Assembly: GCA_025829515.1 (NCBI GenBank)
Contig: GCA_025829515.1_4865.1
DNA length: 64,000 bases
Source of the DNA: a phage
Direction: 5' to 3' (one strand)
In this document: one piece after another, positions 9,967 to 22,542 of the stretch
Layout: every line of letters begins with the position of its first letter
How positions within the stretch are numbered: the stretch's first letter is position 1
The notes under the pieces: generated by a model
Seen by the model: the letters and a program-made list of their open reading frames with translations, nothing else
What the model was told of the DNA's origin: nothing
Databases searched by the model: none
Position numbers and translations under genes: made by a program

Positions 9967-10494
9967 ATGGCAGTCATCTCTGCAAAAGACCAACTCGTCG
10001 CGCTGTTTAATGCTGCAAACAGCGGACTGTCTAGTCCGTTAACTTCTGCTGACGTTACATTCGGCGCTGTTGCTGACTATTCACCAGCAGATTCTGGAGA
10101 CACCCGCAACTCCAAACTCACCATCACTGCCACCGCGGAATCCGCTAACTTTACTGGCGAGAAAGAGCTGCATTATACCCGCCTCGATTCATTGAACATC
10201 ATCGGTGCGAAAGCAGTTACCGCTGACCAGGCAGAATGGGATACCGATGAAGAAGTGCTTGCTTTTGTCAACGCAGATCTAATTGCCGCCGGTAAAACGG
10301 AAGATGCGTTTGCATTGTCTGAACTCACCATTTCACGCGAGGACGGCGACAGTGGTGAGAAAATCATCACTGTTATGGTGAAAGAAGGCCACATTAAATA
10401 CCAGCCTGCCAGCCTTGCAGTTTATACTGTAACGCAGCCAATCGTTAAAACTGACCTGAGCACCACCAACGGTGAACTGGACGGATTCGTTTAA
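9967..10494 (+). CDS. hypothetical protein, possible virion component (175 aa)
   Basis: AAGGAA RBS; C-terminal VKTDLSTTNGELDGFV is near-identical in pattern to the C-terminus of ORF 41. Confidence 0.5.
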   Translation: MAVISAKDQLVALFNAANSGLSSPLTSADVTFGAVADYSPADSGDTRNSKLTITATAESANFTGEKELHYTRLDSLNIIGAKAVTADQAEWDTDEEVLAFVNADLIAAGKTEDAFALSELTISREDGDSGEKIITVMVKEGHIKYQPASLAVYTVTQPIVKTDLSTTNGELDGFV

Positions 10495-10534: not shown

Positions 10535-10558
10535 CCTACCTCCCTTCGGGGAGGTAGG
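10535..10558. terminator. bidirectional terminator hairpin (CCTACCTCCC-TTCG-GGGAGGTAGG)
   Basis: 10-bp stem, TTCG tetraloop, A-run upstream and T-run downstream; between convergent genes. Confidence 0.6.
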
Positions 10559-10575: not shown

Positions 10576-11247
10576 TTACATGCCGAGTGACTCGGACAAT
10601 GTTTTTAATCCAGTGTAATCGCGCTTTTCAGCTAACTCACGGATTTGGCGTTTGTTATCTGCCATTGCTGAGTGCAACACCTGGTCACGTGCAACAATAG
10701 CGGCCAGCAACGCTTTACATTGGGCTACTGTAAACGGACTGTGCTTAGTATTCAGCGTATCGAGCCAGTATTCTGGTGCGGTATCTGCCTGAATGTATTG
10801 ACCGAGGATGGTACGCGACGATTCATCGGCTTGAAAGTGGCTACCTTCAAACTCGATATAACCATGGCGCTCATCTTCGTAGCGGTGGTCGAGTTCCAAC
10901 AGCATCTTCTGCACGTCTTCGTAAATGTAACGCGCGGTAGATTTCAGATTCCCGCGAATTTCGTCGAGGTCAATCTCCAGCACATTAGCAATAAACTCTT
11001 TCGTGCGTTTCAATGTGAAGTTAGCTTCAATCTCCGACATCTCATACAGCTTCATGCGTGCCAGGGCTTCTTTATCAGACATCCCTTCGATGAGATGGTA
11101 ATGGAGTAATGCACAAAATCCGGTACGGCCCTGATCCTGCGCACCGATTCGTTCCATGAAATTACCGTGACGATCAATCGGCAAATCACGCTGGAAATAA
11201 CGGGCGCGGATCTCTTCGTTCGTTAAGCTTTTGTCAGTAACAGACAT
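10576..11247 (-). CDS. hypothetical protein, last gene of the rSAM/Cys-rich module (223 aa)
   Basis: ATG with GAGGAGG RBS; 25-nt overlap with the upstream gene suggests translational coupling. No recognisable motif. Confidence 0.5.
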   Translation of the reverse strand: MSVTDKSLTNEEIRARYFQRDLPIDRHGNFMERIGAQDQGRTGFCALLHYHLIEGMSDKEALARMKLYEMSEIEANFTLKRTKEFIANVLEIDLDEIRGNLKSTARYIYEDVQKMLLELDHRYEDERHGYIEFEGSHFQADESSRTILGQYIQADTAPEYWLDTLNTKHSPFTVAQCKALLAAIVARDQVLHSAMADNKRQIRELAEKRDYTGLKTLSESLGM

Positions 11248-11789
11248 TCGTCCTCCTCAATCAGGCCAAGTTCTAACAACAAACCGAAGTCCAGCATCTG
11301 GAAGTCCTGATCGAGGTTACCGGCCCACAACAGAGAAATGTTGTGTTGCTCTTCTTCTTCCAACTGCGGGAGCAGGTGTTCTTCGAAGATTTGACGCTCT
11401 GTGTAATAAGCGTCAACCGGGTTATTGGAGCGTAAGTTACGAATACGCATCCGCGGGAAAGACAAGCCCAAAGCCACTAAACTTTCAGGACTGGCTTCAT
11501 CAATAGAGTGACGTAGCAGTTCGATTTTGTGGCGTGGGTATGCAAGCAGTCGCTTCTCAAAGCCAGGGTTGCGCTTTTCGATTTCCGCGACAGACTCGTG
11601 TCCTTTCTCAACGCAGTAGACCGGGATCATCACGTTCAGCCCGTATTTAATCAACAGGCTTTGGATTTCATCAGTGAAGTCTTCCCCTGCCACAATTGCG
11701 TGCACATTGTACAGCTTGCTTTTGCGCAGGAAGCGATCGACCAAGTGCAGTTTACGCTTCGTAAAATTGTGAATCAGTATTGACTTCAT
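11223..11789 (-). CDS. hypothetical protein in rSAM module (about 189 aa from ATG 11789)
   Basis: Start chosen at the internal ATG with ACGGAG RBS; the track start at 11867 would overlap the rSAM gene by about 116 nt. Confidence 0.4.
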   Translation of the reverse strand: MKSILIHNFTKRKLHLVDRFLRKSKLYNVHAIVAGEDFTDEIQSLLIKYGLNVMIPVYCVEKGHESVAEIEKRNPGFEKRLLAYPRHKIELLRHSIDEASPESLVALGLSFPRMRIRNLRSNNPVDAYYTERQIFEEHLLPQLEEEEQHNISLLWAGNLDQDFQMLDFGLLLELGLIEEDECLLLTKA

Positions 11790-13080
11790 TCTGGGCTCCG
11801 TTTTGTAATTTTTCTGCTTCGGCACGTTGGCGTACACAACGTGAACAATAGCACATGGATTTATCATGCAAATCTGATGCGCGAGTCGTACCAGTTTTCT
11901 GATACCAATATTCCGCCGCCATCAGCTTCGCAGTAGTCCAACCACACTGACGACGCTCGGCGTGATACGCTTTACGGTCTTCCAGTGTACCTTCACCGTT
12001 TTCGTACGATGCTGCTGCGCAGCTACCGCAGCTGTGTTTCATCGGACACCCTAAACAGGTTTCTGGGTAGTTGGTGTACTGCGTTTGAATCTCTTCTAAC
12101 AGCTTACCGCCGTCCAGGCTCACAAACTCACGACCAACCAGTTCCGCTACAGCAGAGCGGGAAGTTACCGTGGACATGAAACGGTTACAACCGTAAATCT
12201 TGCGATCAAAGCCGAGACAGGTCATGTGCGTCAACGTACCGCAGTACGGTTTCAGGCGTTCTGGGTCGAGACGAACAGAGTCGTCATGTAAGAGTTTGTC
12301 ACGCCAATCCGGGTCCCAAGTTGCCATAAAGTTCAGGCCATCCGGGATGATGTGTGTAATCGTGTTACGCGGGTTGGTGTGCAGACCCTTCTCAATCCAG
12401 TAGTCCATCACGTCCATCATCTGGTTCGCGATATCCAACGCCATATGGCGCGGCAGGATATCTTCGTACGTTACGTTACCAGAGATGGTACCACCGCCGG
12501 ACATGTCAATTAACGATTTCATGCTGGCGGCATAGTGCGGCAATGTATCGATCGTAAACGTCGCCTTTACGCCCAGCTCAGCGATGCCAACACTCTTCAG
12601 ATAATTGTAACCGCGTACCGCAGCTTCGTACGACCCTTCACGCGTCGTGGTAAAGATACGATATTTGTCATGGACTTCAGGTAAACCATCGATGGAGACC
12701 CCAATAGACAGTTTGTCTTTCCAGCGCTCGATAATTTCTTTGTTCAGCGGACGGTCCAGAAGCGTACCGTTCGTGGAGATACTGAACATATACGGGCGAT
12801 TGTGTTCTGCGCATAACTTCTCTGCGGTTTCAAAGGCCGCCAAAAGAAGTTTAGGCTGCATGAACGGCTCACCACCGATGATATCGATGATGACTTCAAC
12901 GTTCGGGATATCTTTATCACGCTCGAAACAAGCGTGGATAAAATCAATCACGTCTGCTACTTTGTTGTTACGCGGATATTTACGCTCGTAGCAGTATTCG
13001 CAGTCCAGGTTACATGACAGGTTAGTCACAACCTGATACGTGCGTGGTGTGTACTGGATTTGCTGTTCGCTATTACTCAT
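11752..13080 (-). CDS. radical SAM enzyme with Cys-rich C-terminal SPASM-like domain (442 aa), putative peptide/protein maturase
   Basis: N-terminal CNLDCEYCY (CxxxCxxC radical-SAM cluster motif); C-terminal Cys cluster (CLGCPMKHSCGSCAA...CGW...CYCSRC) typical of SPASM auxiliary Fe-S domains (anSME / sacti- / ranthipeptide maturase type). Confidence 0.7.
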   Translation of the reverse strand: MSNSEQQIQYTPRTYQVVTNLSCNLDCEYCYERKYPRNNKVADVIDFIHACFERDKDIPNVEVIIDIIGGEPFMQPKLLLAAFETAEKLCAEHNRPYMFSISTNGTLLDRPLNKEIIERWKDKLSIGVSIDGLPEVHDKYRIFTTTREGSYEAAVRGYNYLKSVGIAELGVKATFTIDTLPHYAASMKSLIDMSGGGTISGNVTYEDILPRHMALDIANQMMDVMDYWIEKGLHTNPRNTITHIIPDGLNFMATWDPDWRDKLLHDDSVRLDPERLKPYCGTLTHMTCLGFDRKIYGCNRFMSTVTSRSAVAELVGREFVSLDGGKLLEEIQTQYTNYPETCLGCPMKHSCGSCAAASYENGEGTLEDRKAYHAERRQCGWTTAKLMAAEYWYQKTGTTRASDLHDKSMCYCSRCVRQRAEAEKLQNGAQNEVNTDSQFYEA

Positions 13081-13987
13081 TGTTCGCCGCCCGTTTACGC
13101 TTAGCAGAAATTACACGGTTGATGTAGTTATACGCATCAACGCCGATAGAACGCGCCAGGCGATTACAGCCGACTTCCAATATCTCTGGGGCGTTCTGAA
13201 TTTGCTCCTGCGTACCGTCGGCGTTAAGCCACAGCACTTCACTGCACGTGTTGCACTCGGTATCGAACATTTTACTGATCGCAAGCCCACATTCAGAATC
13301 GTTCTGCATGTTAAGGCGTTCGATATTGTCGAGTATTTTCCAATACCCGTACATGAAGTTCATGACGTGGTCTGGCGATAACGGTTTCGGCATCATCGCA
13401 TCAAACAACAACGACACACCACCTGGACGGTAATGATAGATTGCTCGGTGCAGCTCGATGAAATCTTCGTACCAGCGTTTATCACCTAACTGGTCACGCG
13501 TCATCACACCCCAGGTGTAATAGTTGTCCAGCTCGTACAGCACTTCCAGCGCTTCGTGATTACCACCGTTTACAAAGTTCATAAACGGACGTTCCGACTT
13601 CTTGTAGCCGTCAATGGACACAAAGATAAGGTCGAACTGTTTCAGCAACGGCAGATGTGACTTACGCATCTTTAAACCGTTGGTGTACATGTGATGACGG
13701 AGGTTCGGATGAGACTCCTTCAACTCGTTCACGAAGTCTTCAATCTTACGCTGCGCTAACAGCGGCTCACCGCCCGTCCAATGAATCTCACCGATATCCG
13801 GATTCTTCTCTAAAATAGAGAGAATCTCTTCACGTTGAAACTCACGAGAAGTATCTTCTCTATCCATGTAATAAGCCCCTCCACAGAAGCTACAGTCTAA
13901 GTTACACTTAGAAGTTGCGACAACCGACAGAATTGACGGTTTGTCGTACAGTTCAGACGAGATCCTGGATTCTACTTGATCTGTCAT
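13073..13987 (-). CDS. radical SAM enzyme (second maturase-like, about 304 aa from ATG 13987)
   Basis: SKCNLDCSFCGG (CxxxCxxC) near the N-terminus; C-terminal ECGLAIS...ECNTCSE...GCN partial auxiliary-cluster (twitch-like) pattern. The track TTG start at 14023 is an alternative. Confidence 0.65.
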   Translation of the reverse strand: MTDQVESRISSELYDKPSILSVVATSKCNLDCSFCGGAYYMDREDTSREFQREEILSILEKNPDIGEIHWTGGEPLLAQRKIEDFVNELKESHPNLRHHMYTNGLKMRKSHLPLLKQFDLIFVSIDGYKKSERPFMNFVNGGNHEALEVLYELDNYYTWGVMTRDQLGDKRWYEDFIELHRAIYHYRPGGVSLLFDAMMPKPLSPDHVMNFMYGYWKILDNIERLNMQNDSECGLAISKMFDTECNTCSEVLWLNADGTQEQIQNAPEILEVGCNRLARSIGVDAYNYINRVISAKRKRAANNE

Positions 13988-14009
13988 TGCAGGTTGCTCC
14001 AGTATATTT

Positions 14010-14897
14010 TTAAATATAATCAATGGCGAATAAAGGATCTTCGTCTACATTAGCGCCGGGCACCAGTAACATCGGGTCGTGATAGGCAGCTAAAATTTTG
14101 TTCAGGTCGGCGTGTCTTTCGTTCAGGCGTTTCAAATCGGCCAACGTTACCGAACGACCACGAATCTCAGAAACAGCTTCTGCTTCTTCTTTCGTTAAAT
14201 CCACCTTCGTTAAGAGGAAACTTACCAGCTTACTCAAATCCGCTTCCGTCGCCGGATAATCCCCATATCGGGTTTGAACCAGATGTTGCATCCACGGTTT
14301 ACGAATACGTTTGGTGATTTCAAAATCGTCAGTCAACGCATACCAGACAGAACGCTTTTTATCCCACACGAACTTATAGCTATACGCCATCATGTCCGCT
14401 AAACGGGTGATGCCAAGTTCTTTATACCCCTCGATATCGATGTATGGTTCGGTGTCGAAATACGTTTCCGTATCGGCAGGTACCAGTACAAAGTAGTAAG
14501 GGAACGAGCCCAGATAGTCCGGACTCCACCAACGGCGCGCCATCGGTTTTGCTTCAAGTTCGTCAAACGGTGTAAACATCAGTTCTAAATCGACGCTGTT
14601 GTTCAAAATCCCTTCACTGAAGAAATACTTACCGTCGACTAACACGCCACGAGAGTTACCATCGCCGTTAAAGATAACGATGGCCTCTGCAACCATATCA
14701 CGGATCTTAAACGTATTTTCTACGGTGTAGTTCTTCTTGTCGGTCAAGAAGCGACCACGAACCTTTGGCCACTCACCAGGAATCTGTGCAATCAGTCTGA
14801 CTTTGTCAGCAAGGTGCGCACGCACTGAATCTGGGGAAGATAGATGCAGCGGGTGGTTGAATGTGGTTTTATACGCAAGATGCAAATCGTTTTTCAT
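14010..14897 (-). CDS. hypothetical protein between Cys-rich genes and rSAM genes (295 aa)
   Basis: ATG with GGAG RBS; no recognisable motif; candidate leader-recognition or accessory protein by position only. Confidence 0.5.
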   Translation of the reverse strand: MKNDLHLAYKTTFNHPLHLSSPDSVRAHLADKVRLIAQIPGEWPKVRGRFLTDKKNYTVENTFKIRDMVAEAIVIFNGDGNSRGVLVDGKYFFSEGILNNSVDLELMFTPFDELEAKPMARRWWSPDYLGSFPYYFVLVPADTETYFDTEPYIDIEGYKELGITRLADMMAYSYKFVWDKKRSVWYALTDDFEITKRIRKPWMQHLVQTRYGDYPATEADLSKLVSFLLTKVDLTKEEAEAVSEIRGRSVTLADLKRLNERHADLNKILAAYHDPMLLVPGANVDEDPLFAIDYI

Positions 14898-14919
14898 TTA
14901 ATACTCCGAACGTTTTCTG

Positions 14920-15126
14920 TTATCGATTCCCCGCTCCACGGCTACAGCTTCCGCTGCAGGACCAGCTACACCCACCATTACAGTTATAGTGAGAAAGCGG
15001 TAAGCCAGCCAGGTTATTTGTGGTCGACACGGTGCCCTGGTTAGCGATATAGTTGTTTGCCTGTGCGGTTGTAATGTAACCTTCTGCCGTAACGAGACGG
15101 TTTCGAATAGTCTTGAGACTGATCAC
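14920..15126 (-). CDS. Cys-rich precursor-like small protein 3 (68 aa)
   Basis: GTG start with GGAGG RBS. N-terminal region (ISLKTIRNRL...ANNYI) is paralogous to the N-termini of ORFs 15142 and 15557; short C-terminal core HYNCNGGCSWSCSGSCS. Confidence 0.5.
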   Translation of the reverse strand: MISLKTIRNRLVTAEGYITTAQANNYIANQGTVSTTNNLAGLPLSHYNCNGGCSWSCSGSCSRGAGNR

Positions 15127-15141
15127 ATAAGCCTCCGTCAG

Positions 15142-15546
15142 TTAGGAGTTAGGACCTGAACAACCACCAGAGCACGCACCTGAGCAGTTTGCGGAGCAGG
15201 ATTTACCACAACCCCCAGAACAGCTGCCTGTGCACGTGCCGCTACAACCACCAGAGCACGAAGAGCTACAGCCCGTGCAGCTGCTGCTACAGCCTGATAC
15301 ACAGTTTGCCGAGCAAGTCGACCCACAACCACCTGTCGCGGACCCTGTGCAGCCGCCAGAGCAACTTGAGCAGCTAAAAGAGCATGTCCCACCACAGTCA
15401 TAGTGCGAACGGCCTTGACCTGCGAACAAGTCGGCGTTATTCGTAGCTTTATTGCGAATGTAGTTTTGCACATTCGTGGTGTTCTTTAAAGCGTTTGCAT
15501 CGATCGTGTTTAATCGGTTATTCAGTTCTTTTAATCCAATTGCCAT
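15142..15546 (-). CDS. Cys-rich precursor-like protein 2 (134 aa), (C-x-x-x)n Ser/Gly/Thr core
   Basis: ATG with AAGGGGG RBS. Leader-like N-terminal ~50 aa, then HYDCGGTCSFSCSS... with about 20 Cys, mostly one every fourth residue. Confidence 0.55.
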   Translation of the reverse strand: MAIGLKELNNRLNTIDANALKNTTNVQNYIRNKATNNADLFAGQGRSHYDCGGTCSFSCSSCSGGCTGSATGGCGSTCSANCVSGCSSSCTGCSSSCSGGCSGTCTGSCSGGCGKSCSANCSGACSGGCSGPNS

Positions 15547-15556
15547 TTAATCCCCC

Positions 15557-15949
15557 TTAGCGACCTGAACAGCCGCCGGAGCAGGCCCCGGAACAACTGG
15601 AAGAACATGAGCCACCGCAACCACCAGTGCAGTTACCGGTACAGCTACTACTGCAACCACCAGAACAACCAGAGCAACCAGAACAGTTACCGCCACACGT
15701 CGAAGAACAGCTACCGATGCAAGAAGCAGAACAGCTTCCTGAACAGCTCGAACAACCGTGAGAACAGCCATTCGAACACGTCCAAGAACATGTCCCGCCG
15801 CAATCTAGCTGTGCTTTCGTCCAACCCCCAAATCGGTCTGCCGCATTATGGGCTTTAGAGGCCACTTGCGCGTCGATGCGGGGGCCTGTCGCCATGTTAG
15901 CTTCGACTATCTGGACGCGGTTTCTGACGTCTTTAATAGATATCGCCAT
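15557..15949 (-). CDS. Cys-rich precursor-like protein 1 (130 aa), (C-x-x-x)n Ser/Gly/Thr core
   Basis: ATG with AAGGAAG RBS. Leader-like N-terminus (IKDVRNRVQIVEAN...), then QLDCGGTCSWTCSNGCSHGCSSCSGSC... with about 21 Cys. Confidence 0.55.
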   Translation of the reverse strand: MAISIKDVRNRVQIVEANMATGPRIDAQVASKAHNAADRFGGWTKAQLDCGGTCSWTCSNGCSHGCSSCSGSCSASCIGSCSSTCGGNCSGCSGCSGGCSSSCTGNCTGGCGGSCSSSCSGACSGGCSGR

Positions 15950-15970
15950 TACGCTTCCTTAAAAAGTAGA

Positions 15971-16007
15971 ACGAGCGGACTATGTCCATAAACATAGTCC
16001 GGCTCGT
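15971..16007 (-). promoter_or_regulatory. intergenic stem-loop upstream of the Cys-rich genes (attenuator / processing-site candidate)
   Basis: CGGACTATG / CATAGTCCG 9-bp stem, extended by ACGAG/CTCGT; on the minus strand it is followed by CTTTTT and then the RBS of gene 15949. Confidence 0.4.
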
Positions 16008-16014
16008 AAACAAA

Positions 16015-17217
16015 TTACTTAGTACCCGCTTCAGCTTGAACATCGTCGCGCGTGGTGAGGTTGTTGTTGACGTGAACAGCAGCCTGCACAACACCTCCAT
16101 ACTGTTTATGGAGGTAATTCGGGTGTGGGTTATCCGCAGCCGCATGGTTCGCCAGATTCTGGTTTGCCTGCGAAATTGCGTTGGTGTTGTTTATAACCTG
16201 AGTTTTAAGACTGTTGATTTGTCCTTGCAGGTTATCAATTTGCTGTTGGAAGTCCTTGCCCTGATTCTCAAGATCCGTGACGCGCTGATTTGTTTCATTC
16301 AGTGCAGACTGCAGATCGTTAACCATCTTCTGTAATTGCAACACCAGAGAATTAAGGTTAGCTAATGCTAACGACATTTTCTGGTAATTTTGAGCAACCA
16401 CATTAAGCTGGTCGTTCCACGCGGCTAACGAAGCCACAATTGCATCGATGCGTTTCCCCAACGCCGTGTCTGCTGCTCTTAAGTCGCCGATATCGTTGAT
16501 AGTGGCGTCAATGGCAGTCTGTACACTTTGAATCAGGGCACGAATCTCCGTCTCCGTCAGGCCATTAACCTGATGAATGTCGAGATTGTGTACGTTACCT
16601 TCGGCGTTGATGTGTGTATTTAAGGCGTCGAGGAAGTCGTTTCTCAGACCGTCCAGAATACCTTTAATTTCTTCCAGCTGTACTGCAGAGCCGGAGTTAA
16701 TCGCATCTTTAATCCCCGCGAGTACGGTAATGATATACTCAAAACCGTAGATATCGCCAAGGTCTTTATACGTCGGGGCGGACGGGAACGTATCGGGTAC
16801 GTTTCGAAGATCCTTGAAGTCCACCACACGGTCTTCAATTTTCAACGACGCAATCGCTTGTCGGATACCTTCGACGTTCGCGGACTGAAAACCACCAACG
16901 ACTTGCGCAGAGACTTCGATATCAGTAGGAATGGCCGAGTTAGTTACCACCACACCCATGACCACTTCGCGGTTCTTGGTCATTTTCTGATATGCAGTAT
17001 GTGCAAAAATCAGTTCGTAGTCTGTGCCGCGTTTGTACGGGTAGACACCTGGTTTATTCGCAGCTGCCAAGCGGAAGGTATCCGCGTAGAAAGCTCCGTC
17101 AGGAAAAGCAAAAGCCCGGTTAACTTTACCAGAACCTAACGTAATACGCCGTGTAACGGCGTTCGACGTTAATGTCCCGGTAAGGTCGAGCGGGTACTGA
17201 TGAATGATTTCGGCCAT
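16015..17217 (-). CDS. putative short tail fiber with coiled-coil shaft (about 400 aa)
   Basis: Start chosen at ATG 17217 (AAAGGAG RBS). N-terminal FYADTFRL...GTDYELIF block shared with the three giant fibre proteins; long heptad-like region (LQLQKMVNDLQSALNETNQRVTDLENQ...). Confidence 0.55.
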   Translation of the reverse strand: MAEIIHQYPLDLTGTLTSNAVTRRITLGSGKVNRAFAFPDGAFYADTFRLAAANKPGVYPYKRGTDYELIFAHTAYQKMTKNREVVMGVVVTNSAIPTDIEVSAQVVGGFQSANVEGIRQAIASLKIEDRVVDFKDLRNVPDTFPSAPTYKDLGDIYGFEYIITVLAGIKDAINSGSAVQLEEIKGILDGLRNDFLDALNTHINAEGNVHNLDIHQVNGLTETEIRALIQSVQTAIDATINDIGDLRAADTALGKRIDAIVASLAAWNDQLNVVAQNYQKMSLALANLNSLVLQLQKMVNDLQSALNETNQRVTDLENQGKDFQQQIDNLQGQINSLKTQVINNTNAISQANQNLANHAAADNPHPNYLHKQYGGVVQAAVHVNNNLTTRDDVQAEAGTK

Positions 17218-17264
17218 TGCCAAACTCCTTTGATTGGGGCTTCCTTGCCCCATAGCGCTATCTG

Positions 17265-20200
17265 TTAGGTACGGAACATAAGATTGACCTGGATAATATC
17301 AGGCTGTTGACGTCCTCTCTCGTTCACCCAATCGTGCGCAATCGTTAACGTAAGATCATCGCCATCCCACGCCACGATCGGTGGTGGGAATAAACCCTGA
17401 GCGCCCGTGGTAACAACCGGGATTGCACCCGTCACATTCGTAAACGTGTAGCTACGACTGTTCAGAACAACTGGTGTGCCGTTGGTCTCTCCCGGCTGTG
17501 GTAAGATTTGAATCTTACTATCCGAAAGATCGGTGGTGATTGGTAGACCCCCAGCGTCCGTGAAAAGCCAAGAGCAAATATGCTGGTTAGCTGTTTCGAG
17601 CGCTGAAGAACTTACCGCCGCGACAAATGTAAAGGTGCACGGCACGCCTGCTGGCAGAGAGTGCTGTTTGTGGTGCACGGTATGTGGTGACGGCAATAAC
17701 ACTTCTGGATTTTCATCAATGTTAACATCCGTACCTTCCGCCTCGACGTTGTAGAAAAAGCCATCCACCGCCTCCCATGGGGCAACGTGAACATTAAAGG
17801 TCGTTTCTACTCCCGGTGTACCTGGGACGACGAATTTACTTTGCACCACCACCATCAAGTTCGTTGAGGTCGGTGAGAAAGCGGGCGTTGGAATACCTAC
17901 CCACTCCATGCCCAACGATGTCGCTTCACTGTTCTCATCGGCCGTTACCGTCGCAATTGTTGTAGGATGTTTCCAAAACGCCCCCGACTTGTTTGCCTGA
18001 GTAAACGCCGGCAAAGTTTTCAAGCCTTCGAAACGTTTGGACACCATCGCTTTACCGCGACGCTGTGCGTCAGATACGGTATAAAGCAACTGACTATCCA
18101 GATAGCCTTTCGTAGCATCGATCGACAAAGGACCCATCGCTTCTTTACGCAATGGTGCCAGTCTGCCCGTTGCTGCATCCCTTCCCACCTCCACATCATG
18201 CTTATTCTCAACCGCCGCATGTTCCAACAGTTGTTTCACCGCCCCTAATCGCTTAGCATGTTCGACGTTAGTCTCGACGACTCGCGACGAGCCCGTTTTA
18301 ACATACCCGATATAGAGTTCCGTTTCAGTGTCTGGATGTTGAATCACGTCCATTACGTACTTCGGTGTACCATTTTCTACCTTGGCGTGCAGGTAGAATG
18401 TCCGGTTCTGATGGTTTGTTGGAAATGCTGCGCTGAGGTCAATATACCACGTAGGCAGTTTATAAGTGCTCGAGCCGAAACGCAGGTTAACTTCCTCAGT
18501 CACATATACCAGCCAACCTTCGGCTGTTTCCACACCAGCAATGACAACCGATTCAGTCGGGCCACTAAAATTAGGAGCCGCGACAAAATCACTCGACGAC
18601 ATTGCGATACCACCACAATAGACGTAGTCGAGAGATGAGTTGTGTAGCATCACCTGATCACGATGAGCCAGATAAGCTGGGCTGACTGGGGTGTGGGATG
18701 GTGCCATACGTCCAATGCCGTGTGGAGCAGAAGAACGCGTCCAGGTACCGTTAGACAGCGTAAGACCAACACCGTAGTTAAGCGCACCCAAGTCGCCAAT
18801 TTGGCGCAAGGTTAACGTGTGTGGAAGATACAACCCGAACTGAGTACCATCTACTGACACCAGTGTAGGTTGTCCCGGCCGGCGTGTTTTTCCTCCCGTT
18901 ATCTCGCCCAACGTAGCATAACTCAAGCCATAGTCGAGGTTGTTATAGAAGTCAAACAGTGCCAATATCGCTGCGGGGAATGTTACCTGCCCGTTGCTGA
19001 TCGTTGGTTTCAGTGTAAAGTAGTAGATATCCAACACATTAACATTGTTCACAGTACGCATACATGCTACTTGTGCTAACGTGAGCGGTGTGGCCGTACC
19101 AATGCCGATGAACCAAATGGAGAACAGTGCCTTTCCGGCGTTATTTGCGGCAAGGATAAATTCCGAAGCATAACCATTCGCAGCGCCAGCCGGTGCACCG
19201 TCGATGATCATCTGCTTCATCTTATCCCATTCGGCTTGTGACAGCGTCAACCGATCGGCATGAATCGTGAAAGTGCCAGAAACGTTGTGGTAAGGGAATG
19301 TTTCTGGTCCTGTGCAATACCAGCCGTTTAACTCTGTACCAGGCGACGCCGGTGTAACAATGTGGCACATCTGCGACAGATTCTCGTACGTGGTAGAATC
19401 TACTACACGACGATTGTTAGTTGGGCCATACCCCGCCTTACCTGAGTAAGTGGTGTTCGGATCAAACTCAACTTCAATTGCCAAACGGGTACGCGGCTGT
19501 GACAACCAGATAAGTCTGGAATTCGCTCCCAGAGTCAGCGGATACGCCATACCTAGCTCGTAGATAGAACCACGACCTTGGTTTAACATTACCGCACTAA
19601 AACTTCTGGCAGTGAAGTTGTAGTCGCACGACAGGTACTCGTACCAACTCACACCGTCGTCTAACGTTGTAATCGTGACATAAGGCATTAGGTCGCGATC
19701 GTTTGCATGTCCTTGCGAAACGATATACTTGTCTTGCGATGTTGCAAAGGTTCGGTTATTAGCTTGACCTTCGCCCCACTTCCGGCTCGGAATCCCAATC
19801 TCAGCGCCACCGTTATAACGAACCGTGGTAAGATCGGCCACGATAGGGAATCGATCGGCACCTTCCAGCGTTACCGTCATTGAACCGCAATCAACAACAA
19901 AGCTTGACACCCATTGTTTAAAGTTAATAGTTTGCCCTGTAGTAGAAGCAAACCAGACTGTTGGCGTTAAACCAACACGAAAGTTCAGCCCATCCACAGC
20001 AATCGCGTGATTACATTCCGGACCATGGACGAAATTTCGCGCACTATTCCACTTCGCCGATGCGTCTGCGTAGATTTGTGTTACTGGCGCTACCAACACA
20101 TCTGTATCAGAACGTTTCTGACCCTGACGCAAGTAGATATTATCTCCCGACGTTAACATCCCACCTGTTAACACATCCGCCACAAACGTGTTGCTACCAC

Positions 20201-22448
20201 CCAGATTAAGTTCGTTGAGTGCGATGCTACGCATACTCACGAAATAGTCACCGGAGGTAAGCACAGTACGGAGCAGATAAACCCGCTCGTTGCAAACGAT
20301 CAAATCGTTTGTTGATGGATCAGCAACCCATGGAGCGGTTGTAATCACACCGGCCGCGTTACCATTTCGGTAATCGCCCAACTGAACTTTAACAACACGA
20401 TGATGTTTTGCATGGTCAATGGTTCCGTCAAAGATGACCAGGTAGTACGCACCGTCACTGCCTAAGCAGATCATTGCATCTGTACCGGTAATCACAATAG
20501 CAACCAGATTCACCCCAGGATACGCCGACATTCCAGCGGGGTGATAACGTACGGACGTCTGCTGCATATTTTCCAGCGTATTGCTTGGCGACACATCAGC
20601 ATAGGCGTAATAGATAGCCCAGTCACCTGGTGGATTCCCGTTAGAACCGTTACGGAGCGAGTAAACCTTACCAGACTCGTAACGCGCCAAACCTTTCTGC
20701 CAGGTTTGGTTTTTGGTATACCCTTCGTAGTTCCCCTGGACAGGTATAGGCAAGAAGTTATTGTTGCCGTACGATGATCCGCCGACAGTCCATGCGGGCA
20801 ACAGCGTAGCAATCTTGTCATTCAGTGTGTCAATCTTTTGTTCAAGCAAGAAGCCCTGACGCGAAGTGACCATCTTATCCGAGGTAGTGTCGATTGCATC
20901 CCACAGTTTAGCCAAACCTGTAACAGACGTGGATGCGTACGGCACGTTATCGAGATCTGCAATGGTGTGGGTGTGCGTTGTAAGCGCTTTGCCTGATAGC
21001 ACGGTGCGCAACGCATTAGTAACCGGTTTCTCCAGCGGCCCGGTATTGTTCATCTTCTCAATACCGAAATCTGCCGCGGTTAAGGTCAGATGCATCTGCC
21101 CGTTTGAATCTAATACAAACCCTTTACCATTGACTGTATACGTGTCGTCCACATATCCGTCGAGTTTGTTCTTCAAGTCAGTAACAGCTTTTTGGGAAAT
21201 CGCTGTGGACGCCGCAGCGGACGCCGAAAGGTTAGTAATCGCAAACAAACCCTGCACAGTTGTGGTTGCTGCAGGCAGCTCCGCATTCATGTAAACTTTG
21301 TTTGTTTCTTTACCAGAGCCGTAAATCTTCAACGTGTCGCTGGACTTGAAGTAGGCGTTTGCTGGAAGTATCTTCACCGAGGTCAAGTACATCTTAACCA
21401 TATCCGGTGTAACGAGATACACGCTGTTATACACAGGTGCAAGCACACCTGCATCATAAGCGCCCCACTTGTCACCTGCTTTACCCGAGTGAACCCAAAG
21501 CGTGTTCAGACCAGCACTGAACTCCGTAGCGATACCCGGTTCGTTGTTATCCTGGTCAGCTTTTAATACCAGCGGTTTTGTCGAGGTGATAATGAACTTC
21601 TCACCCTTCATGCTGATAACGTGACCAGACGTTGTTTGGAACGTAATCGCGTCGTTATTCAGAACACGCATACGGCCCAGTAAATCGCCCAGGGTATTAT
21701 CCAGAAGCATGTCAACGTGTTTCTGTTGGATGCCACTGGTAGACATTAACGTCACTAACTCTGCCAGTGTACGTCCAAACGCTTTAGTCGCATCCACGGC
21801 CTTACCGAGCACAGGGAGTGCGCCAATGTCACCGCAGGTGTAACCATGTGCATTTTTAATCAGGTGGTGTTGATACATTTCGTCATCAAACACCTGTTTA
21901 CCGTTCTGATAAATCAAATCGGTAACTTCGGCAAATGCCTCATCCAGTTCGTGGGCGCGCTCTAAAATGCCCAGACGGATATCTTCCAACGCCTTTACGA
22001 TTTCATCGCGAAGAATCGCTTCTTCGAGATCTTTTGGCGGGTCGATTGGCGAGATAATCGGTGGATATTTCATCAGCTCAGACCAATCGCAGTTGCGCGG
22101 GTCTTTCATATCCGTCTTAACCAGATACTTGCCGATTTCAGAAGCAGGGATGCGATACTGTCGACCAACCGACAACAACTCGTATTCTACCTCTGTGGCG
22201 TTCAGCAGCATTATGCTGCCGTATATTGCATCGTTCTCAGCCTCGGCTAATTCCTGGAAGTAATGTCCTAAGAAATAATCAAGACCTTCTATTAACTTGC
22301 GTTTGGTTCCGGTTGTTTTATCGGTAACGGTTAACGTTAACCCGATGCGATAGAACGGTGCTTCGACGGGAATGACCGTCGAATAACGGTTCGGGTAAGT
22401 AGCGGTACTGAGGGTACCGTTAAACTGCGCCGCATCTTCTCTCGGCAT
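17265..22448 (-). CDS. giant tail fiber / tailspike protein (about 1727 aa)
   Basis: Start chosen at ATG 22448 (AGGAGTG RBS; the track start is TTG at 22493). N-terminal APFYRIGLTLTV...GLDYFL anchor-like block shared with ORFs 22544, 26687 and 16015. Confidence 0.55.
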   Translation of the reverse strand: MPREDAAQFNGTLSTATYPNRYSTVIPVEAPFYRIGLTLTVTDKTTGTKRKLIEGLDYFLGHYFQELAEAENDAIYGSIMLLNATEVEYELLSVGRQYRIPASEIGKYLVKTDMKDPRNCDWSELMKYPPIISPIDPPKDLEEAILRDEIVKALEDIRLGILERAHELDEAFAEVTDLIYQNGKQVFDDEMYQHHLIKNAHGYTCGDIGALPVLGKAVDATKAFGRTLAELVTLMSTSGIQQKHVDMLLDNTLGDLLGRMRVLNNDAITFQTTSGHVISMKGEKFIITSTKPLVLKADQDNNEPGIATEFSAGLNTLWVHSGKAGDKWGAYDAGVLAPVYNSVYLVTPDMVKMYLTSVKILPANAYFKSSDTLKIYGSGKETNKVYMNAELPAATTTVQGLFAITNLSASAAASTAISQKAVTDLKNKLDGYVDDTYTVNGKGFVLDSNGQMHLTLTAADFGIEKMNNTGPLEKPVTNALRTVLSGKALTTHTHTIADLDNVPYASTSVTGLAKLWDAIDTTSDKMVTSRQGFLLEQKIDTLNDKIATLLPAWTVGGSSYGNNNFLPIPVQGNYEGYTKNQTWQKGLARYESGKVYSLRNGSNGNPPGDWAIYYAYADVSPSNTLENMQQTSVRYHPAGMSAYPGVNLVAIVITGTDAMICLGSDGAYYLVIFDGTIDHAKHHRVVKVQLGDYRNGNAAGVITTAPWVADPSTNDLIVCNERVYLLRTVLTSGDYFVSMRSIALNELNLGGSNTFVADVLTGGMLTSGDNIYLRQGQKRSDTDVLVAPVTQIYADASAKWNSARNFVHGPECNHAIAVDGLNFRVGLTPTVWFASTTGQTINFKQWVSSFVVDCGSMTVTLEGADRFPIVADLTTVRYNGGAEIGIPSRKWGEGQANNRTFATSQDKYIVSQGHANDRDLMPYVTITTLDDGVSWYEYLSCDYNFTARSFSAVMLNQGRGSIYELGMAYPLTLGANSRLIWLSQPRTRLAIEVEFDPNTTYSGKAGYGPTNNRRVVDSTTYENLSQMCHIVTPASPGTELNGWYCTGPETFPYHNVSGTFTIHADRLTLSQAEWDKMKQMIIDGAPAGAANGYASEFILAANNAGKALFSIWFIGIGTATPLTLAQVACMRTVNNVNVLDIYYFTLKPTISNGQVTFPAAILALFDFYNNLDYGLSYATLGEITGGKTRRPGQPTLVSVDGTQFGLYLPHTLTLRQIGDLGALNYGVGLTLSNGTWTRSSAPHGIGRMAPSHTPVSPAYLAHRDQVMLHNSSLDYVYCGGIAMSSSDFVAAPNFSGPTESVVIAGVETAEGWLVYVTEEVNLRFGSSTYKLPTWYIDLSAAFPTNHQNRTFYLHAKVENGTPKYVMDVIQHPDTETELYIGYVKTGSSRVVETNVEHAKRLGAVKQLLEHAAVENKHDVEVGRDAATGRLAPLRKEAMGPLSIDATKGYLDSQLLYTVSDAQRRGKAMVSKRFEGLKTLPAFTQANKSGAFWKHPTTIATVTADENSEATSLGMEWVGIPTPAFSPTSTNLMVVVQSKFVVPGTPGVETTFNVHVAPWEAVDGFFYNVEAEGTDVNIDENPEVLLPSPHTVHHKQHSLPAGVPCTFTFVAAVSSSALETANQHICSWLFTDAGGLPITTDLSDSKIQILPQPGETNGTPVVLNSRSYTFTNVTGAIPVVTTGAQGLFPPPIVAWDGDDLTLTIAHDWVNERGRQQPDIIQVNLMFRT

Positions 22449-22481
22449 TGCAAACACTCCTAATCTGTAATAAAACGGAGA

Positions 22482-22542
22482 CCGCCCTCCCAATAACGGA
22501 AGGGCGGTTTACCTACGGACTACCCGCCCGTAGGCAGTCCGT
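22482..22542 (-). promoter_or_regulatory. paired intergenic hairpins between the fibre genes (partial terminator / RNA processing candidate)
   Basis: CCGCCCT...AGGGCGG and ACGGACT...AGTCCGT stems (with alternative CCTACGG/CCGTAGG pairing); in the minus sense they are followed by a U-rich tract just before the RBS of gene 22448. Confidence 0.35.

What the first reader, a model, noticed from the sequence alone, without database searches (positions are those of the whole stretch)
14920..15949. Three paralogous proteins with (C-x-x-x)n periodic cysteine cores of very different length
The cores contain about 21, 20 and 4 cysteines (counted from the translations: 81, 84 and 20 residues) in a strict low-complexity C[SGT]xx periodicity, while the ~45-50 aa N-terminal regions are more complex and mutually similar (I[KS]..R.R...E.N). 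Variable core length on a conserved leader is typical of RiPP precursor families, but a 4-residue Cys period could equally build a metal-binding or disulfide/thioether ladder scaffold. The repetitive GC-rich coding DNA also generates long spurious antisense ORFs.
Basis: seen in the sequence. Interest (0 to 1): 0.8.

Follow-up and report, generated by a model that had tools for sequence, protein, structure and literature searches.

The report
Radical-SAM-modified cysteine-repeat tail-fibre tip proteins
Three small, mostly unannotated genes of this SPN3US-type giant Salmonella phage encode proteins with a cysteine at every fourth residue, and they most likely form the outer end of a tail fibre after chemical cross-linking by two neighbouring radical-SAM enzymes, a way of building a virus part that I could not find described.

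Summary
Three tightly packed minus-strand genes encode A (130 aa, 21 Cys), B (134 aa, 20 Cys) and C (68 aa, 4 Cys), each behind a Shine-Dalgarno site.

They are real genes. Across 18 related phages every Cys column is invariant, while synonymous sites are saturated (pN/pS 0.2-0.4).

The window is an SPN3US-like jumbo phage. GenBank and RefSeq SPN3US annotate only a wrong-frame ORF (gp166) over B.

Directly downstream lie a 295-aa protein of unknown fold (gp165) and two radical-SAM enzymes. One is a SPASM type whose best family match is the "CXXX-repeat target" maturase TIGR04115. Directly upstream lie the virion fibre proteins gp167 and gp168.

The same cassette follows tail-fibre genes in P2-like, T7-like and lambda-like phages and in Firmicute prophages. 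In many metagenomic proteins the module forms the C-terminus of canonical tail-fibre proteins.

Best reading (about 0.6): A, B and C are distal fibre-tip subunits whose Cys ladders are cross-linked by the radical-SAM enzymes, probably as thioethers. They are probably not free RiPP antibiotics. The chemistry and virion location remain untested.

The parts
15557..15949 (-). Cxxx-repeat protein A (130 aa; 49-aa helical N-terminal region; junction CGGTCSWTCS; 21 Cys). Not annotated in SPN3US GenBank or RefSeq.
   Evidence: phrog_6085 E 7.5e-41. TIGR04114 19.6 bits against a cutoff of 20. All 21 Cys columns invariant in 18 phages.
15142..15546 (-). Cxxx-repeat protein B (134 aa, 20 Cys). GenBank gp166 (15138-15473) is a different frame on the same strand.
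   Evidence: phrog_6085 E 3e-41. 20 invariant Cys columns. In AF2 only the N-terminal helix (residues 5-20) is modelled; mean pLDDT 43.
14920..15126 (-). Cxxx-repeat protein C (68 aa, GTG start, 4 Cys). The short paralog keeps the leader and the C.G.CSW junction only.
   Evidence: phrog_6085 E 2.7e-24. Conserved in 12 loci with 4 Cys. Present with 2 Cys in the two loci of the more distant clade that I inspected, L013 and L015, and in L133.
14010..14897 (-). gp165, a 295-aa accessory protein of unknown fold, co-inherited with the cassette.
13073..14023 (-). Small radical-SAM enzyme (gp164, 'rSAM2'). CNLDCSFC motif at residues 40-47 of the ORF. The likely start is the ATG at 13987. The RefSeq model starts after the Cys motif.
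   Evidence: Pfam Radical_SAM 1.1e-15. Start comparison. Homologs sit in the cassettes of L133, L134 and L045.
11752..13080 (-). SPASM-type radical-SAM enzyme (gp163, 'rSAM1', 442 aa), a putative cross-linking maturase.
   Evidence: Best NCBIfam match TIGR04115, 125.6 bits (cutoff 350), then PapB 113.6 bits. Seven conserved C-terminal Cys. Closest solved relative is PDB 5WGG/5WHY, E 3e-10, which I recognise from memory as the SCIFF maturase CteB. 32% identical over the full length to the L045 cassette enzyme.
11223..11867 (-). gp162, unknown function, last-but-one gene of the operon. Co-occurs with the cassette in L133.
   Evidence: phrog_7988. phmmer hit to the L133 172-aa ORF, E 2.6e-8.
10576..11247 (-). 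gp161, a DUF4376 protein, last gene of the operon.
   Evidence: Pfam DUF4376 1.4e-9. Weak hit to tail-protein phrog_2837.
16015..17253 (-). gp167, a coiled-coil virion (non-head) protein immediately upstream. Candidate shaft onto which A, B and C dock.
   Evidence: Detected in virions with 70% coverage (PMC5694885 Supplementary Table 1). Coiled-coil and weak tail-fibre PHROG hits.
17265..22493 (-). gp168, a 1742-aa baseplate/fibre protein and the most upstream gene of this minus-strand run that I examined.
   Evidence: Called a tail protein and baseplate/fibre candidate in PMC5105663 and PMC5694885.
15971..16007 (-). 16-bp RNA hairpin followed by UUCUACUUUUU, between the gp167 stop and the A start. 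Possible attenuator or stabiliser.
   Evidence: dG -24.3 kcal/mol, z -3.6.
10535..10558 (.). Bidirectional terminator-like hairpin that closes the operon after gp161.

Best explanation
A, B and C are the distal ('tip') subunits of an SPN3US tail fibre. They are made as separate small proteins. Each has three parts: an N-terminal amphipathic helix of about 48 aa, the motif NN.(D/N).(L/F).G.....Y(D/N)-C.G.CSW.CS, and a (C-x-x-x)n rod.

The three genes are probably translationally coupled (10-22 nt gaps). Their products probably assemble through the N-terminal helices, perhaps as an A:B:C unit, onto the fibre shaft encoded just upstream (gp167/gp168).

Before or during assembly, three proteins encoded immediately downstream act on the regularly spaced cysteines: the SPASM radical-SAM enzyme gp163, the smaller radical-SAM enzyme gp164, and gp165. 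Judged by the nearest characterised relatives (CteB, PapB, QhpD), the likeliest chemistry converts thiols into S-C (thioether) cross-links. That would give a rigid ladder that resists redox change and proteases at the host-facing end of the fibre.

Status of each step:
- Shown: the genes are real and under purifying selection.
- Shown: the cassette (target + small rSAM + gp165-like + SPASM rSAM) recurs next to tail-fibre genes in unrelated phage types.
- Shown: the module occurs fused to the C-terminus of tail-fibre proteins.
- Inferred: A, B and C are substrates of the two rSAMs; they are in the virion; thioether chemistry; heteromeric assembly.
For: Real genes: invariant Cys columns, pN/pS 0.2-0.4 at saturated pS, SD sites.

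Operon context: gp168 - gp167 (virion tail proteins) - A - B - C - gp165 - rSAM2 - rSAM1 - gp162 - gp161 - terminator.

Enzymes: rSAM1's best families are TIGR04115 'CXXX-repeat target' and then PapB. Its nearest solved relative is PDB 5WGG/5WHY, which I recognise from memory as the thioether-forming SCIFF maturase CteB.

The same cassette in other phages:
- L045, a P2/Mu-like myovirus. A 401-aa tail-fibre protein ends in '...LNGQAPDYYRCANGCSWTC(Cxxx)n'. It is followed by a 262-aa rSAM, a 242-aa gp165-like protein and a 398-aa SPASM rSAM.
- L134/L135, a T7-like podovirus: Phage_T7_tail fibre - Cxxx 198 aa - rSAM - gp165-like - rSAM - terminase genes.
- L137, lambda-like: M, L, K, I, J - Cxxx 188 aa - rSAM.
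- L133, a 76-kb phage: two long and one short Cxxx paralog + gp165-like + rSAM2 + rSAM1 + gp162-like.
- Firmicute-type prophages L028 and L050-L052: fibre/baseplate-type genes (assigned by eye in L050-L052) - Cxxx - small ORF - a related radical-SAM enzyme, scored as a true TIGR04115 member only in L028 (389 bits) - holin and lysin in L028 and L052.

Fusions: a profile search of 1.84 billion representatives found 397 relatives. Many are 300-560-aa proteins with the module at the C-terminus. Of 10 tested, all 10 hit phrog_6085 C-terminally and 6 have N-terminal tail-fibre or tail PHROG hits; a seventh hits a virion structural protein family.

Other points:
- An extra rSAM2 paralog is inserted between A and B in L003/L018.
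- No protease or exporter is present in the phage cassettes I inspected.
- The long-long-short trio is conserved across clades.
Against: - A, B and C have never been seen in virions. The published SPN3US proteomes detected gp167-173 but none of gp161-166. However, A and C are not annotated and 'gp166' is in the wrong frame, so presumably they could not have been identified. The cores also lack tryptic sites.
- Relatives of the same family occur in classical bacterial RiPP-type clusters, with short precursors and ABC transporters (L049, L055, L057, L058). A released peptide therefore has precedent.
- In L133 the cassette is not next to recognisable fibre genes.
- AF2 gives no fold for the core, and gp165 has no informative structural neighbour. 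No structural evidence supports a rod.
- The chemistry rests only on distant homology: rSAM1 scores far below the TIGR04115 and PapB cutoffs.
- Pairwise similarity of the leaders to the pre-repeat segment of fused fibres is modest (A against L045 z 4.6; B and C not significant).
Confidence: 0.6

Rival explanations
1. Conventional phage-encoded RiPP. A, B and C are precursor peptides. The roughly 48-aa leader guides the radical-SAM maturases, is then cleaved, and the modified Cys-rich core is released at lysis as an antimicrobial, a signal or an anti-defence molecule.
For: - Leader/core architecture, and several paralogous precursors beside SPASM radical-SAM enzymes.
- Members of the same target/maturase family lie in bacterial clusters with short precursors and ABC transporters (L049, L055, L057, L058).
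- Database names such as 'Cys-Xaa-Xaa-Xaa repeat radical SAM target protein'.
Against: - No protease, exporter or immunity gene in any phage cassette I inspected.
- The cassette lies inside tail-fibre modules in at least five unrelated phage types.
- The whole 'leader + junction + repeat' unit is an internal or C-terminal part of 300-560-aa tail-fibre proteins.
- The number of Cys per ortholog is fixed, and the long-long-short trio is conserved. That fits a stoichiometric assembly better than a diversifying natural product.
Confidence: 0.17
2. Metal-binding scaffold. The Cys ladder binds Zn, Fe or Fe-S along the fibre axis, analogous to the His-Fe sites in the T4 gp37 needle. Alternatively it serves as a metal or sulfur store. 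The radical-SAM enzymes would play only an indirect role.
For: - Regular Cys spacing with small residues in between.
- AF2 cannot fold the apo monomer.
- The junction contributes 2 Cys per chain in all three paralogs. Three chains would give six ligands.
- The T4 gp37 precedent is from my own knowledge and was not tested here.
Against: - It does not explain the strict co-inheritance with two radical-SAM enzymes and gp165 across phage types.
- The closest characterised relatives of rSAM1 make covalent S-C links.
- No solved relative of the module exists to support a metal site.
Confidence: 0.1
3. Non-structural fibre-assembly factor. The Cys-repeat proteins act as intermolecular (or, in fused versions, intramolecular and later cleaved) chaperones for fibre trimerisation and are absent from mature virions.
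For: - Position next to fibre genes. C-terminal intramolecular chaperones are common in fibres (own knowledge).
- A, B and C are not reported in virion proteomes.
- A DUF4376 protein sits at the operon end.
Against: - Three dedicated modification genes for a discarded chaperone seems unlikely.
- There is no similarity to the chaperone families covered by the Pfam, NCBIfam and PHROG libraries searched.
- The absence from proteomes is uninformative, because the sequences were not annotated and so presumably were not in the search database.
Confidence: 0.06
4. Low-complexity frame artefact: the true genes are in another frame or strand, such as the annotated gp166.
For: GenBank and RefSeq annotate a different frame. 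Long alternative ORFs exist.
Against: - Invariant Cys columns with saturated synonymous change and both Cys codons in use.
- SD sites.
- Strong PHROG profile hits.
- Homologs in unrelated phages.
Confidence: 0.01

Closest known systems
CXXX-repeat radical-SAM target system (NCBIfam TIGR04114 tSAM_targ_Cxxx / TIGR04117, maturase TIGR04115; Pfam PF27846 tSAM_targ_Cxxx_rpt). As far as I could find, it is defined only bioinformatically.
   Same: - Cys at every fourth residue with small residues between.
- An adjacent SPASM radical-SAM enzyme whose best family match is TIGR04115.
- A, B and C give weak TIGR04114 hits.
- A bona fide TIGR04115 enzyme with a PF27846 target lies in the tail module of prophage L028.
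   Different: - All scores here are below the curated cutoffs: 19.6 against 20 for the target, 125.6 against 350 for the enzyme.
- The phage cassette has a second, smaller radical-SAM enzyme and a gp165-like protein that the libraries do not know.
- No protein tested here hit any accessory-protein family in NCBIfam.
- The targets carry a fibre-type N-terminal region, or are fused to tail fibres, and sit in virion-structure operons rather than in transporter-containing clusters.
Ranthipeptide and SCIFF thioether maturases (PapB/freyrasin; CteB, PDB 5WGG/5WHY) and QhpD, which cross-links the QhpC subunit of quinohemoprotein amine dehydrogenase.
   Same: - SPASM radical-SAM architecture with CxxxCxxC plus seven C-terminal Cys.
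- PapB is the second-best family. PDB 5WGG/5WHY, which I recognise as CteB, is the closest solved relative.
- Substrates are Cys-rich and repetitive (freyrasin has six CxxxD units; own knowledge).
- QhpD is a precedent for such an enzyme cross-linking a protein subunit that stays in a complex (own knowledge; TIGR03906 hit).
   Different: - Sequence similarity is distant (E 3e-10 to 5WGG; 113 bits against a 340 cutoff for PapB).
- Acceptor residues here would have to be Ser, Gly, Thr, Ala, Asn or Cys rather than Asp, Glu or Thr in defined motifs.
- About 20 consecutive sites per chain.
- The product is proposed to be part of a virion.
Separate or modular receptor-binding tips of phage fibres: the T2/S16 gp38 adhesin with Gly-rich motifs, the T4 gp37 needle with His-Fe sites, and collagen-like GXY rods in tail fibres (own knowledge).
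   Same: - A small protein or C-terminal module of periodic low complexity at the distal end of a fibre.
- Encoded directly after the shaft gene.
- Exchangeable between phage types.
- Collagen-like fibres and Cxxx modules occur in the same proteins (L045 401 aa, P0193).
   Different: None of those needs dedicated radical-SAM enzymes. The period is 4 with Cys, not 3 with Gly. No structural similarity could be tested, because AF2 failed.
PHROG phrog_6085 (unknown function).
   Same: A, B and C match at E 1e-24 to 1e-41 over the full length. The fused fibre proteins match it C-terminally.
   Different: The PHROG carries no annotation. The link to radical-SAM enzymes and tail fibres is not recorded there.

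Membership tests
CXXX-repeat radical-SAM target system (TIGR04114/04115, PF27846) | Target protein with a Cys-every-fourth-residue repeat that matches TIGR04114 or PF27846 | tested here: inconclusive
   The pattern is obvious by eye. HMM scores are 19.6 (A), 17.1 (B) and 13.7 (C) bits against a cutoff of 20. PF27846 did not match any protein in the Pfam copy available here, including homologs whose precomputed annotation carries it. Homologs P0005, P0006 and P0011 do pass TIGR04114.
CXXX-repeat radical-SAM target system (TIGR04114/04115, PF27846) | Adjacent radical-SAM maturase of the equivalog TIGR04115 | tested here: not met
   TIGR04115 is the best hit for rSAM1, but at 125.6 bits against a cutoff of 350. 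rSAM1 is 23% identical to a true member, the L028 enzyme at 389 bits. It is a homolog, not an equivalog.
CXXX-repeat radical-SAM target system (TIGR04114/04115, PF27846) | Small accessory 'modification system protein' next to the maturase | tested here: not met
   gp165, gp162 and gp161 give no NCBIfam hit. Instead a gp165-like protein (phrog_8030) is conserved in the phage cassettes.
RiPP precursor peptides (general) | Leader peptide removed by a dedicated or host protease, and the core released or exported | not testable with these tools
   No protease or exporter gene is in the cassette. The leader-equivalent segment is internal in fused fibre proteins. Cleavage itself needs mass spectrometry.
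Thioether-forming SPASM radical-SAM maturases (sacti- and ranthipeptide type) | CxxxCxxC SAM cluster plus a C-terminal SPASM Cys motif for auxiliary clusters | tested here: met
   C23/C27/C30 and C280, C298, C342, C345, C351, C354 and C379 are invariant in the alignment with the L045, L028 and L013 enzymes. Pfam Radical_SAM hit. Related to PDB 5WGG/5WHY (CteB, from memory) and PapB.
Thioether-forming SPASM radical-SAM maturases (sacti- and ranthipeptide type) | Product contains Cys S-to-carbon cross-links | not testable with these tools
   Needs co-expression and mass spectrometry or NMR.
Phage tail-fibre proteins / receptor-binding modules | Encoded in the tail-fibre module, and homologous to a domain of recognised tail-fibre proteins | tested here: met
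   Synteny in the window. The module is C-terminal in proteins whose N-termini hit tail-fibre PHROGs or Pfams.
Phage tail-fibre proteins / receptor-binding modules | Physically present in the virion tail | not tested
   Published proteomes presumably could not detect unannotated proteins. Raw data cannot be re-searched here.
PHROG phrog_6085 | Full-length profile match | tested here: met
   E 7.5e-41 (A), 3e-41 (B) and 2.7e-24 (C).

The most novel reading that the evidence does not exclude
Phages of several morphotypes use RiPP-type radical-SAM chemistry to build a virion part, not to make a secreted peptide. The part would be a (C-x-x-x)n ladder, covalently stapled by about 20 consecutive thioether (or other S-C) links per chain, that forms the distal, receptor-facing end of tail fibres. 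In SPN3US-like phages this tip would be a conserved three-chain unit (two long chains and one short). That would be a new class of structural protein modification in viruses, and it would give a function to the uncharacterised CXXX-repeat/TIGR04115 family.
Probability: 0.4. Interest if true: 0.9.

Novelty: new variant of a known kind. Interest (0 to 1): 0.8.

Why it matters
- It would show that radical-SAM peptide-maturation chemistry has been recruited to harden or shape the host-recognition end of phage tail fibres. I found no paper on this in nine full-text searches, including a 2026 jumbo-phage review.
- It gives a testable function to a family that exists only as database models (TIGR04114/04115, PF27846, phrog_6085).
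- It corrects the annotation of a model jumbo phage. SPN3US gp166 is in the wrong frame, A and C are missing, and gp164 is truncated before its Fe-S motif.
- It explains why these proteins could have escaped virion proteomics.
- SPN3US uses flagella as receptor (PMC11428620). The tip proteins are therefore candidates for the flagellum-binding element.
- The cassette is modular across myo-, sipho- and podoviruses, so it could be a transferable host-range or stability module for engineered phages.

Tried and rejected
- AlphaFold2 of B with a 9-sequence alignment gave mean pLDDT 43. Only the N-terminal helix was modelled, so there is no information on the repeat fold.
- A PDB sequence search with the family profile found nothing.
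- Literature searches found nothing relevant on: CXXX repeat, TIGR04114/04115, PF27846, phrog_6085, SPN3US + radical SAM, radical SAM + tail fibre, and phage RiPP. Haft & Basu 2011 was not held.
- I first thought paralog C was missing in the 63-65% identity clade. That was an artefact of my regex, which needed at least 4 Cys. In the two loci of that clade that I re-read (L013, L015), C is present with 2 Cys.
- Homology of the window leaders to the N-terminal domain of the Firmicute-prophage Cxxx proteins (P0011 type) is not significant pairwise. I do not claim it.
- A recent tandem-duplication origin for the repeats is rejected.
- A viral-contig scan with the CSWTC junction motif added no new fused examples beyond L045. 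Most fused proteins come from metagenome protein sets for which I could not fetch context.
- The sigma-70 promoter scan found fewer sites than shuffles gave, which is uninformative for a phage with its own RNA polymerase.
Full report
**1. What is there**

The window is an SPN3US-type jumbo phage (Seoulvirus). It is 98-99% identical to Salmonella phages SPLA1a and SPN3US and to Proteus phage 7 over 13000-17300.

| Protein | Coordinates | Length | Cys | Core |
|---|---|---|---|---|
| A | 15557-15949 | 130 aa | 21 | 81 aa |
| B | 15142-15546 | 134 aa | 20 | 84 aa |
| C | 14920-15126 (GTG start) | 68 aa | 4 | 20 aa |

- Cys spacing is 4, with a few 3s and one 8. The cores consist almost only of C, S, G and T.
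- Each gene has an SD-like site, and the genes are separated by only 10-22 nt.
- The pattern is unique in the window and absent from shuffles.
- It is not a recent DNA tandem repeat.
- The leaders are significantly similar to each other.

**2. Real genes, badly annotated**

I recovered the orthologous region from 18 IMG/VR phage contigs whose neighbouring radical-SAM enzyme is 63-100% identical.

- All 21 Cys columns of A and all 20 of B are invariant across the 18 loci, and all 4 of C across the 12 loci that carry the 4-Cys form.
- Synonymous sites are saturated (pS 0.75-0.80), and pN/pS is 0.20-0.40. Both TGT and TGC are used.
- The three proteins match phrog_6085, which has unknown function, at E 1e-24 to 1e-41.

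The annotation of the reference phage is poor. GenBank and RefSeq SPN3US annotate only 'gp166' (window 15138-15473), which lies in a different frame over gene B. A and C are not annotated. At least 13 of the 60 GenBank phage records listed by tblastn have no feature under the match.

**3.

The genes lie in a long minus-strand run:

gp168 (1742-aa baseplate/fibre protein) - gp167 (coiled-coil virion protein) - A - B - C - gp165 (295 aa) - gp164 (small radical-SAM enzyme) - gp163 (442-aa SPASM radical-SAM enzyme) - gp162 - gp161 (DUF4376) - terminator at 10535-10558.

- The best NCBIfam match of gp163 is TIGR04115, 'radical SAM peptide maturase, CXXX-repeat target family' (125.6 bits, cutoff 350). 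PapB follows at 113.6 bits.
- Its closest solved relative is PDB 5WGG/5WHY at E 3e-10. I recognise this entry from memory as the thioether-forming SCIFF maturase CteB.
- It keeps the CxxxCxxC motif and seven C-terminal SPASM-type Cys.
- A, B and C give just-subthreshold hits to TIGR04114, 'tSAM_targ_Cxxx'.

In published virion proteomics, gp167-gp173 were detected as non-head proteins. gp161-gp166 were not detected (PMC5694885 Supplementary Table 1; PMC5105663). A, B and C are not annotated, so presumably they were not in the search database. Their cores also have no tryptic sites.

**4. The same cassette in unrelated phages, next to or fused to tail fibres**

- **L045**, a P2/Mu-like myovirus contig with ORFs that I read as baseplate, sheath, tube and tape-measure genes. 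It has a 401-aa protein whose N-terminus hits tail-fibre and minor-tail PHROGs and contains collagen-like triplets. Its C-terminus is '...IDAETLNGQAPDYYRCANGCSWTCSSGC(TGGC...)n'. Three genes follow directly: a 262-aa radical-SAM enzyme, a 242-aa gp165-like protein, and a 398-aa SPASM enzyme that is 32% identical to gp163 over its full length.
- **L134/L135**, a T7-like podovirus: nozzle, gp14, core proteins, Phage_T7_tail fibre, then a 198-aa Cxxx protein, a radical-SAM enzyme, a gp165-like protein, a second radical-SAM enzyme, then the packaging genes.
- **L137**, a lambda-like siphovirus: M, L, K, I, J, then a 188-aa Cxxx protein and a radical-SAM enzyme.
- **L133**, a 76-kb phage contig: two long Cxxx paralogs (122 and 119 aa) and one short (69 aa, '...YYDCGGSCSWTASGR'), followed by homologs of gp165, gp164, gp163 and gp162 in the SPN3US order.
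- **L136**, an 80-kb contig with phage-type genes (lysozyme family, a 4120-aa protein): a 113-aa Cxxx protein beside two radical-SAM enzymes.
- **Firmicute-type prophages** (L028-L030, L050-L052): genes that look like baseplate and fibre genes, then a 200-335-aa Cxxx protein, one or two small ORFs, and a single related radical-SAM enzyme. Holin and endolysin follow in L028 and L052. In L050 the enzyme precedes the Cxxx gene. L028 has precomputed Pfam support for its tail genes, and its enzyme is a bona fide TIGR04115 member at 389 bits. For L050-L052 the tail-gene assignments are by eye, and the enzymes were scored only against rSAM1.

A profile of the family against 1.84 billion representative proteins gave 397 hits at E<=1e-3 and 72 at E<=1e-10. 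Many are 300-560-aa proteins with the module at the extreme C-terminus, behind a strongly conserved junction '(N/D)A..L.G.....Y(Y/F)(R/D)C..(G)CSWTC(S/M)'.

Of ten such proteins tested, all ten hit phrog_6085 at the C-terminus. Six have N-terminal hits to tail-fibre, tail-collar or tail-protein PHROGs, and a seventh hits a virion structural protein family.

In those alignments, the part corresponding to the window's 'leader' is included as the segment immediately before the repeats.

**5. Other members of the wider family**

The genome scan also showed non-phage contexts:

- short 60-94-aa precursors with a 710-aa fused radical-SAM enzyme and ABC transporters, a classical RiPP layout (L049, L055, L057, L058);
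- 660-aa proteins with 112-122 Cys in Margulisbacteria (L046-L048);
- TAT-signal proteins in Acidobacteria (L060).

The Cys-repeat/maturase pair is therefore a broad system. The window belongs to a phage branch defined by the CSW junction, a second small radical-SAM enzyme and gp165.

**6. How it most likely works**

Shown:
- the genes are real and constrained;
- the cassette is modular and recurs with tail-fibre genes in at least five unrelated phage lineages;
- the module is a C-terminal (distal) part of tail-fibre proteins elsewhere;
- in SPN3US-like phages and L133 it is split off as a conserved trio of two long chains and one short. C has 4 Cys in the SPN3US group and 2 Cys in the two loci of the more distant clade that I re-read.

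Inferred:
- A, B and C dock through their N-terminal amphipathic helices onto the shaft encoded upstream. AF2 predicts a helix at residues 5-20. Hydrophobic positions with 3-4 spacing are conserved in all three.
- They may dock as an A:B:C unit, which would match a trimeric fibre.
- gp163, gp164 and gp165 modify the regularly spaced cysteines in the reducing cytoplasm. Thioether links are the likeliest product, by analogy with CteB, PapB and QhpD.
- The result would be a defined, oxidation-proof and protease-resistant ladder at the host-facing end.

Two further observations fit. An extra gp164 paralog is inserted between A and B in two contigs, which underlines the functional link between enzyme and target. 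SPN3US uses flagella as its receptor (PMC11428620), so the tip is a candidate flagellum-binding element; that link is speculation.

My confidence in the structural-tip reading is about 0.6. My confidence in thioether chemistry specifically is about 0.45.

**7. Rivals**

| Rival | Confidence | Main weakness |
|---|---|---|
| Conventional released RiPP | about 0.17 | No protease or exporter; fibre fusions; fixed stoichiometry. It has precedent in the bacterial relatives. |
| Metal-binding ladder | about 0.10 | Leaves the enzymes unexplained. It could coexist with a structural role. |
| Discarded assembly chaperone | about 0.06 | Three dedicated modification genes for a discarded factor seems unlikely. 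|
| Frame artefact | about 0.01 | Refuted by conservation. |

**8. Comparison with what is known, and novelty**

The closest known entity is the bioinformatically defined CXXX-repeat target/maturase system (TIGR04114/04115/04117, PF27846). The window works like it but fails the equivalog cutoffs. It also differs in having two radical-SAM enzymes plus gp165, and in its fibre context.

I found no experimental or computational paper on this family or on radical-SAM enzymes acting on tail fibres. A 2026 review of jumbo phages does not mention radical SAM.

I therefore rate it a new variant of a known kind, with high interest (0.8).

**9. Limits**

- There is no structural model of the repeat and no fold clue for gp165.
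- There are no expression or proteomic data for A, B and C.
- Genomic context is known for only a handful of the fused fibre proteins.
- The chemistry is inferred from distant homology.

Noticed in passing
window 15138-15473 (-): SPN3US 'gp166' (AEP83999 / YP_009153460) is an out-of-frame ORF on the same strand as gene B. The conserved frame is 15142-15546. A and C have no annotation in GenBank or RefSeq SPN3US.
   Followed up: yes
window 13073-14023 (-): The RefSeq and GenBank model of the small radical-SAM gene gp164 (264 aa) starts at M53 of the ORF, downstream of the CNLDCSFC Fe-S motif. The paralog in L003 suggests the true start is the ATG at about 13987 (MTDQVESR...).
   Followed up: partly
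L003 5542-6453 and the same region of L018: Two metagenomic SPN3US-like contigs carry an extra 303-aa paralog of the small radical-SAM enzyme, inserted between Cxxx genes A and B.
   Followed up: partly
window 15971-16007 (-): A strong 16-bp hairpin followed by a U-rich tract lies between the gp167 stop and the A start (dG -24.3, z -3.6). It could attenuate or stabilise the transcript. The consensus terminator scan did not flag it.
   Followed up: partly
L020 4069-4543 and L021 8471-8942: Small viral contigs with two ORFs carrying period-3 Cys repeats (C-x-x-C-x-x..., 17-18 Cys) directly upstream of a SPASM radical-SAM enzyme 24% identical to gp163. This may be a different Cys-repeat target class.
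   Followed up: no
L046 3886-5874, L047 7399-9402, L048 7647-9650: Margulisbacteria / Termititenax genomes encode 660-aa proteins with 112-122 Cys in CXXX register next to a 399-aa radical-SAM enzyme. No obvious phage genes are nearby.
   Followed up: no
GenBank phages SPFM1, 5-10, 12, 14, 15, 20 (rows H72-H85; P0042, P0045, P0047, P0053, P0058): In a subset of SPFM Salmonella phage records, the B leader and gp165 match only in short fragments, and the annotated proteins are truncated or chimeric. The cause could be assembly frameshifts or a rearranged cassette.
   Followed up: no
PMC5694885 main text versus its Supplementary Table 1: The paper's text lists gp161 as a member of head paralog family B, but the supplementary table lists gp160, not gp161. 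gp161 (DUF4376) was not among the detected virion proteins.
   Followed up: partly
L133 8600-8821: The 76-kb phage contig that carries the closest non-Seoulvirus cassette encodes an Acb2/Tad1-hairpin family (anti-CBASS/Thoeris sponge-like) protein just upstream of its Cxxx genes.
   Followed up: no
window 10535-10558: A perfect 10-bp GC-rich palindrome with T-runs on both strands (a bidirectional terminator) separates the fibre/rSAM operon from the plus-strand gene ending at 10494.
   Followed up: no
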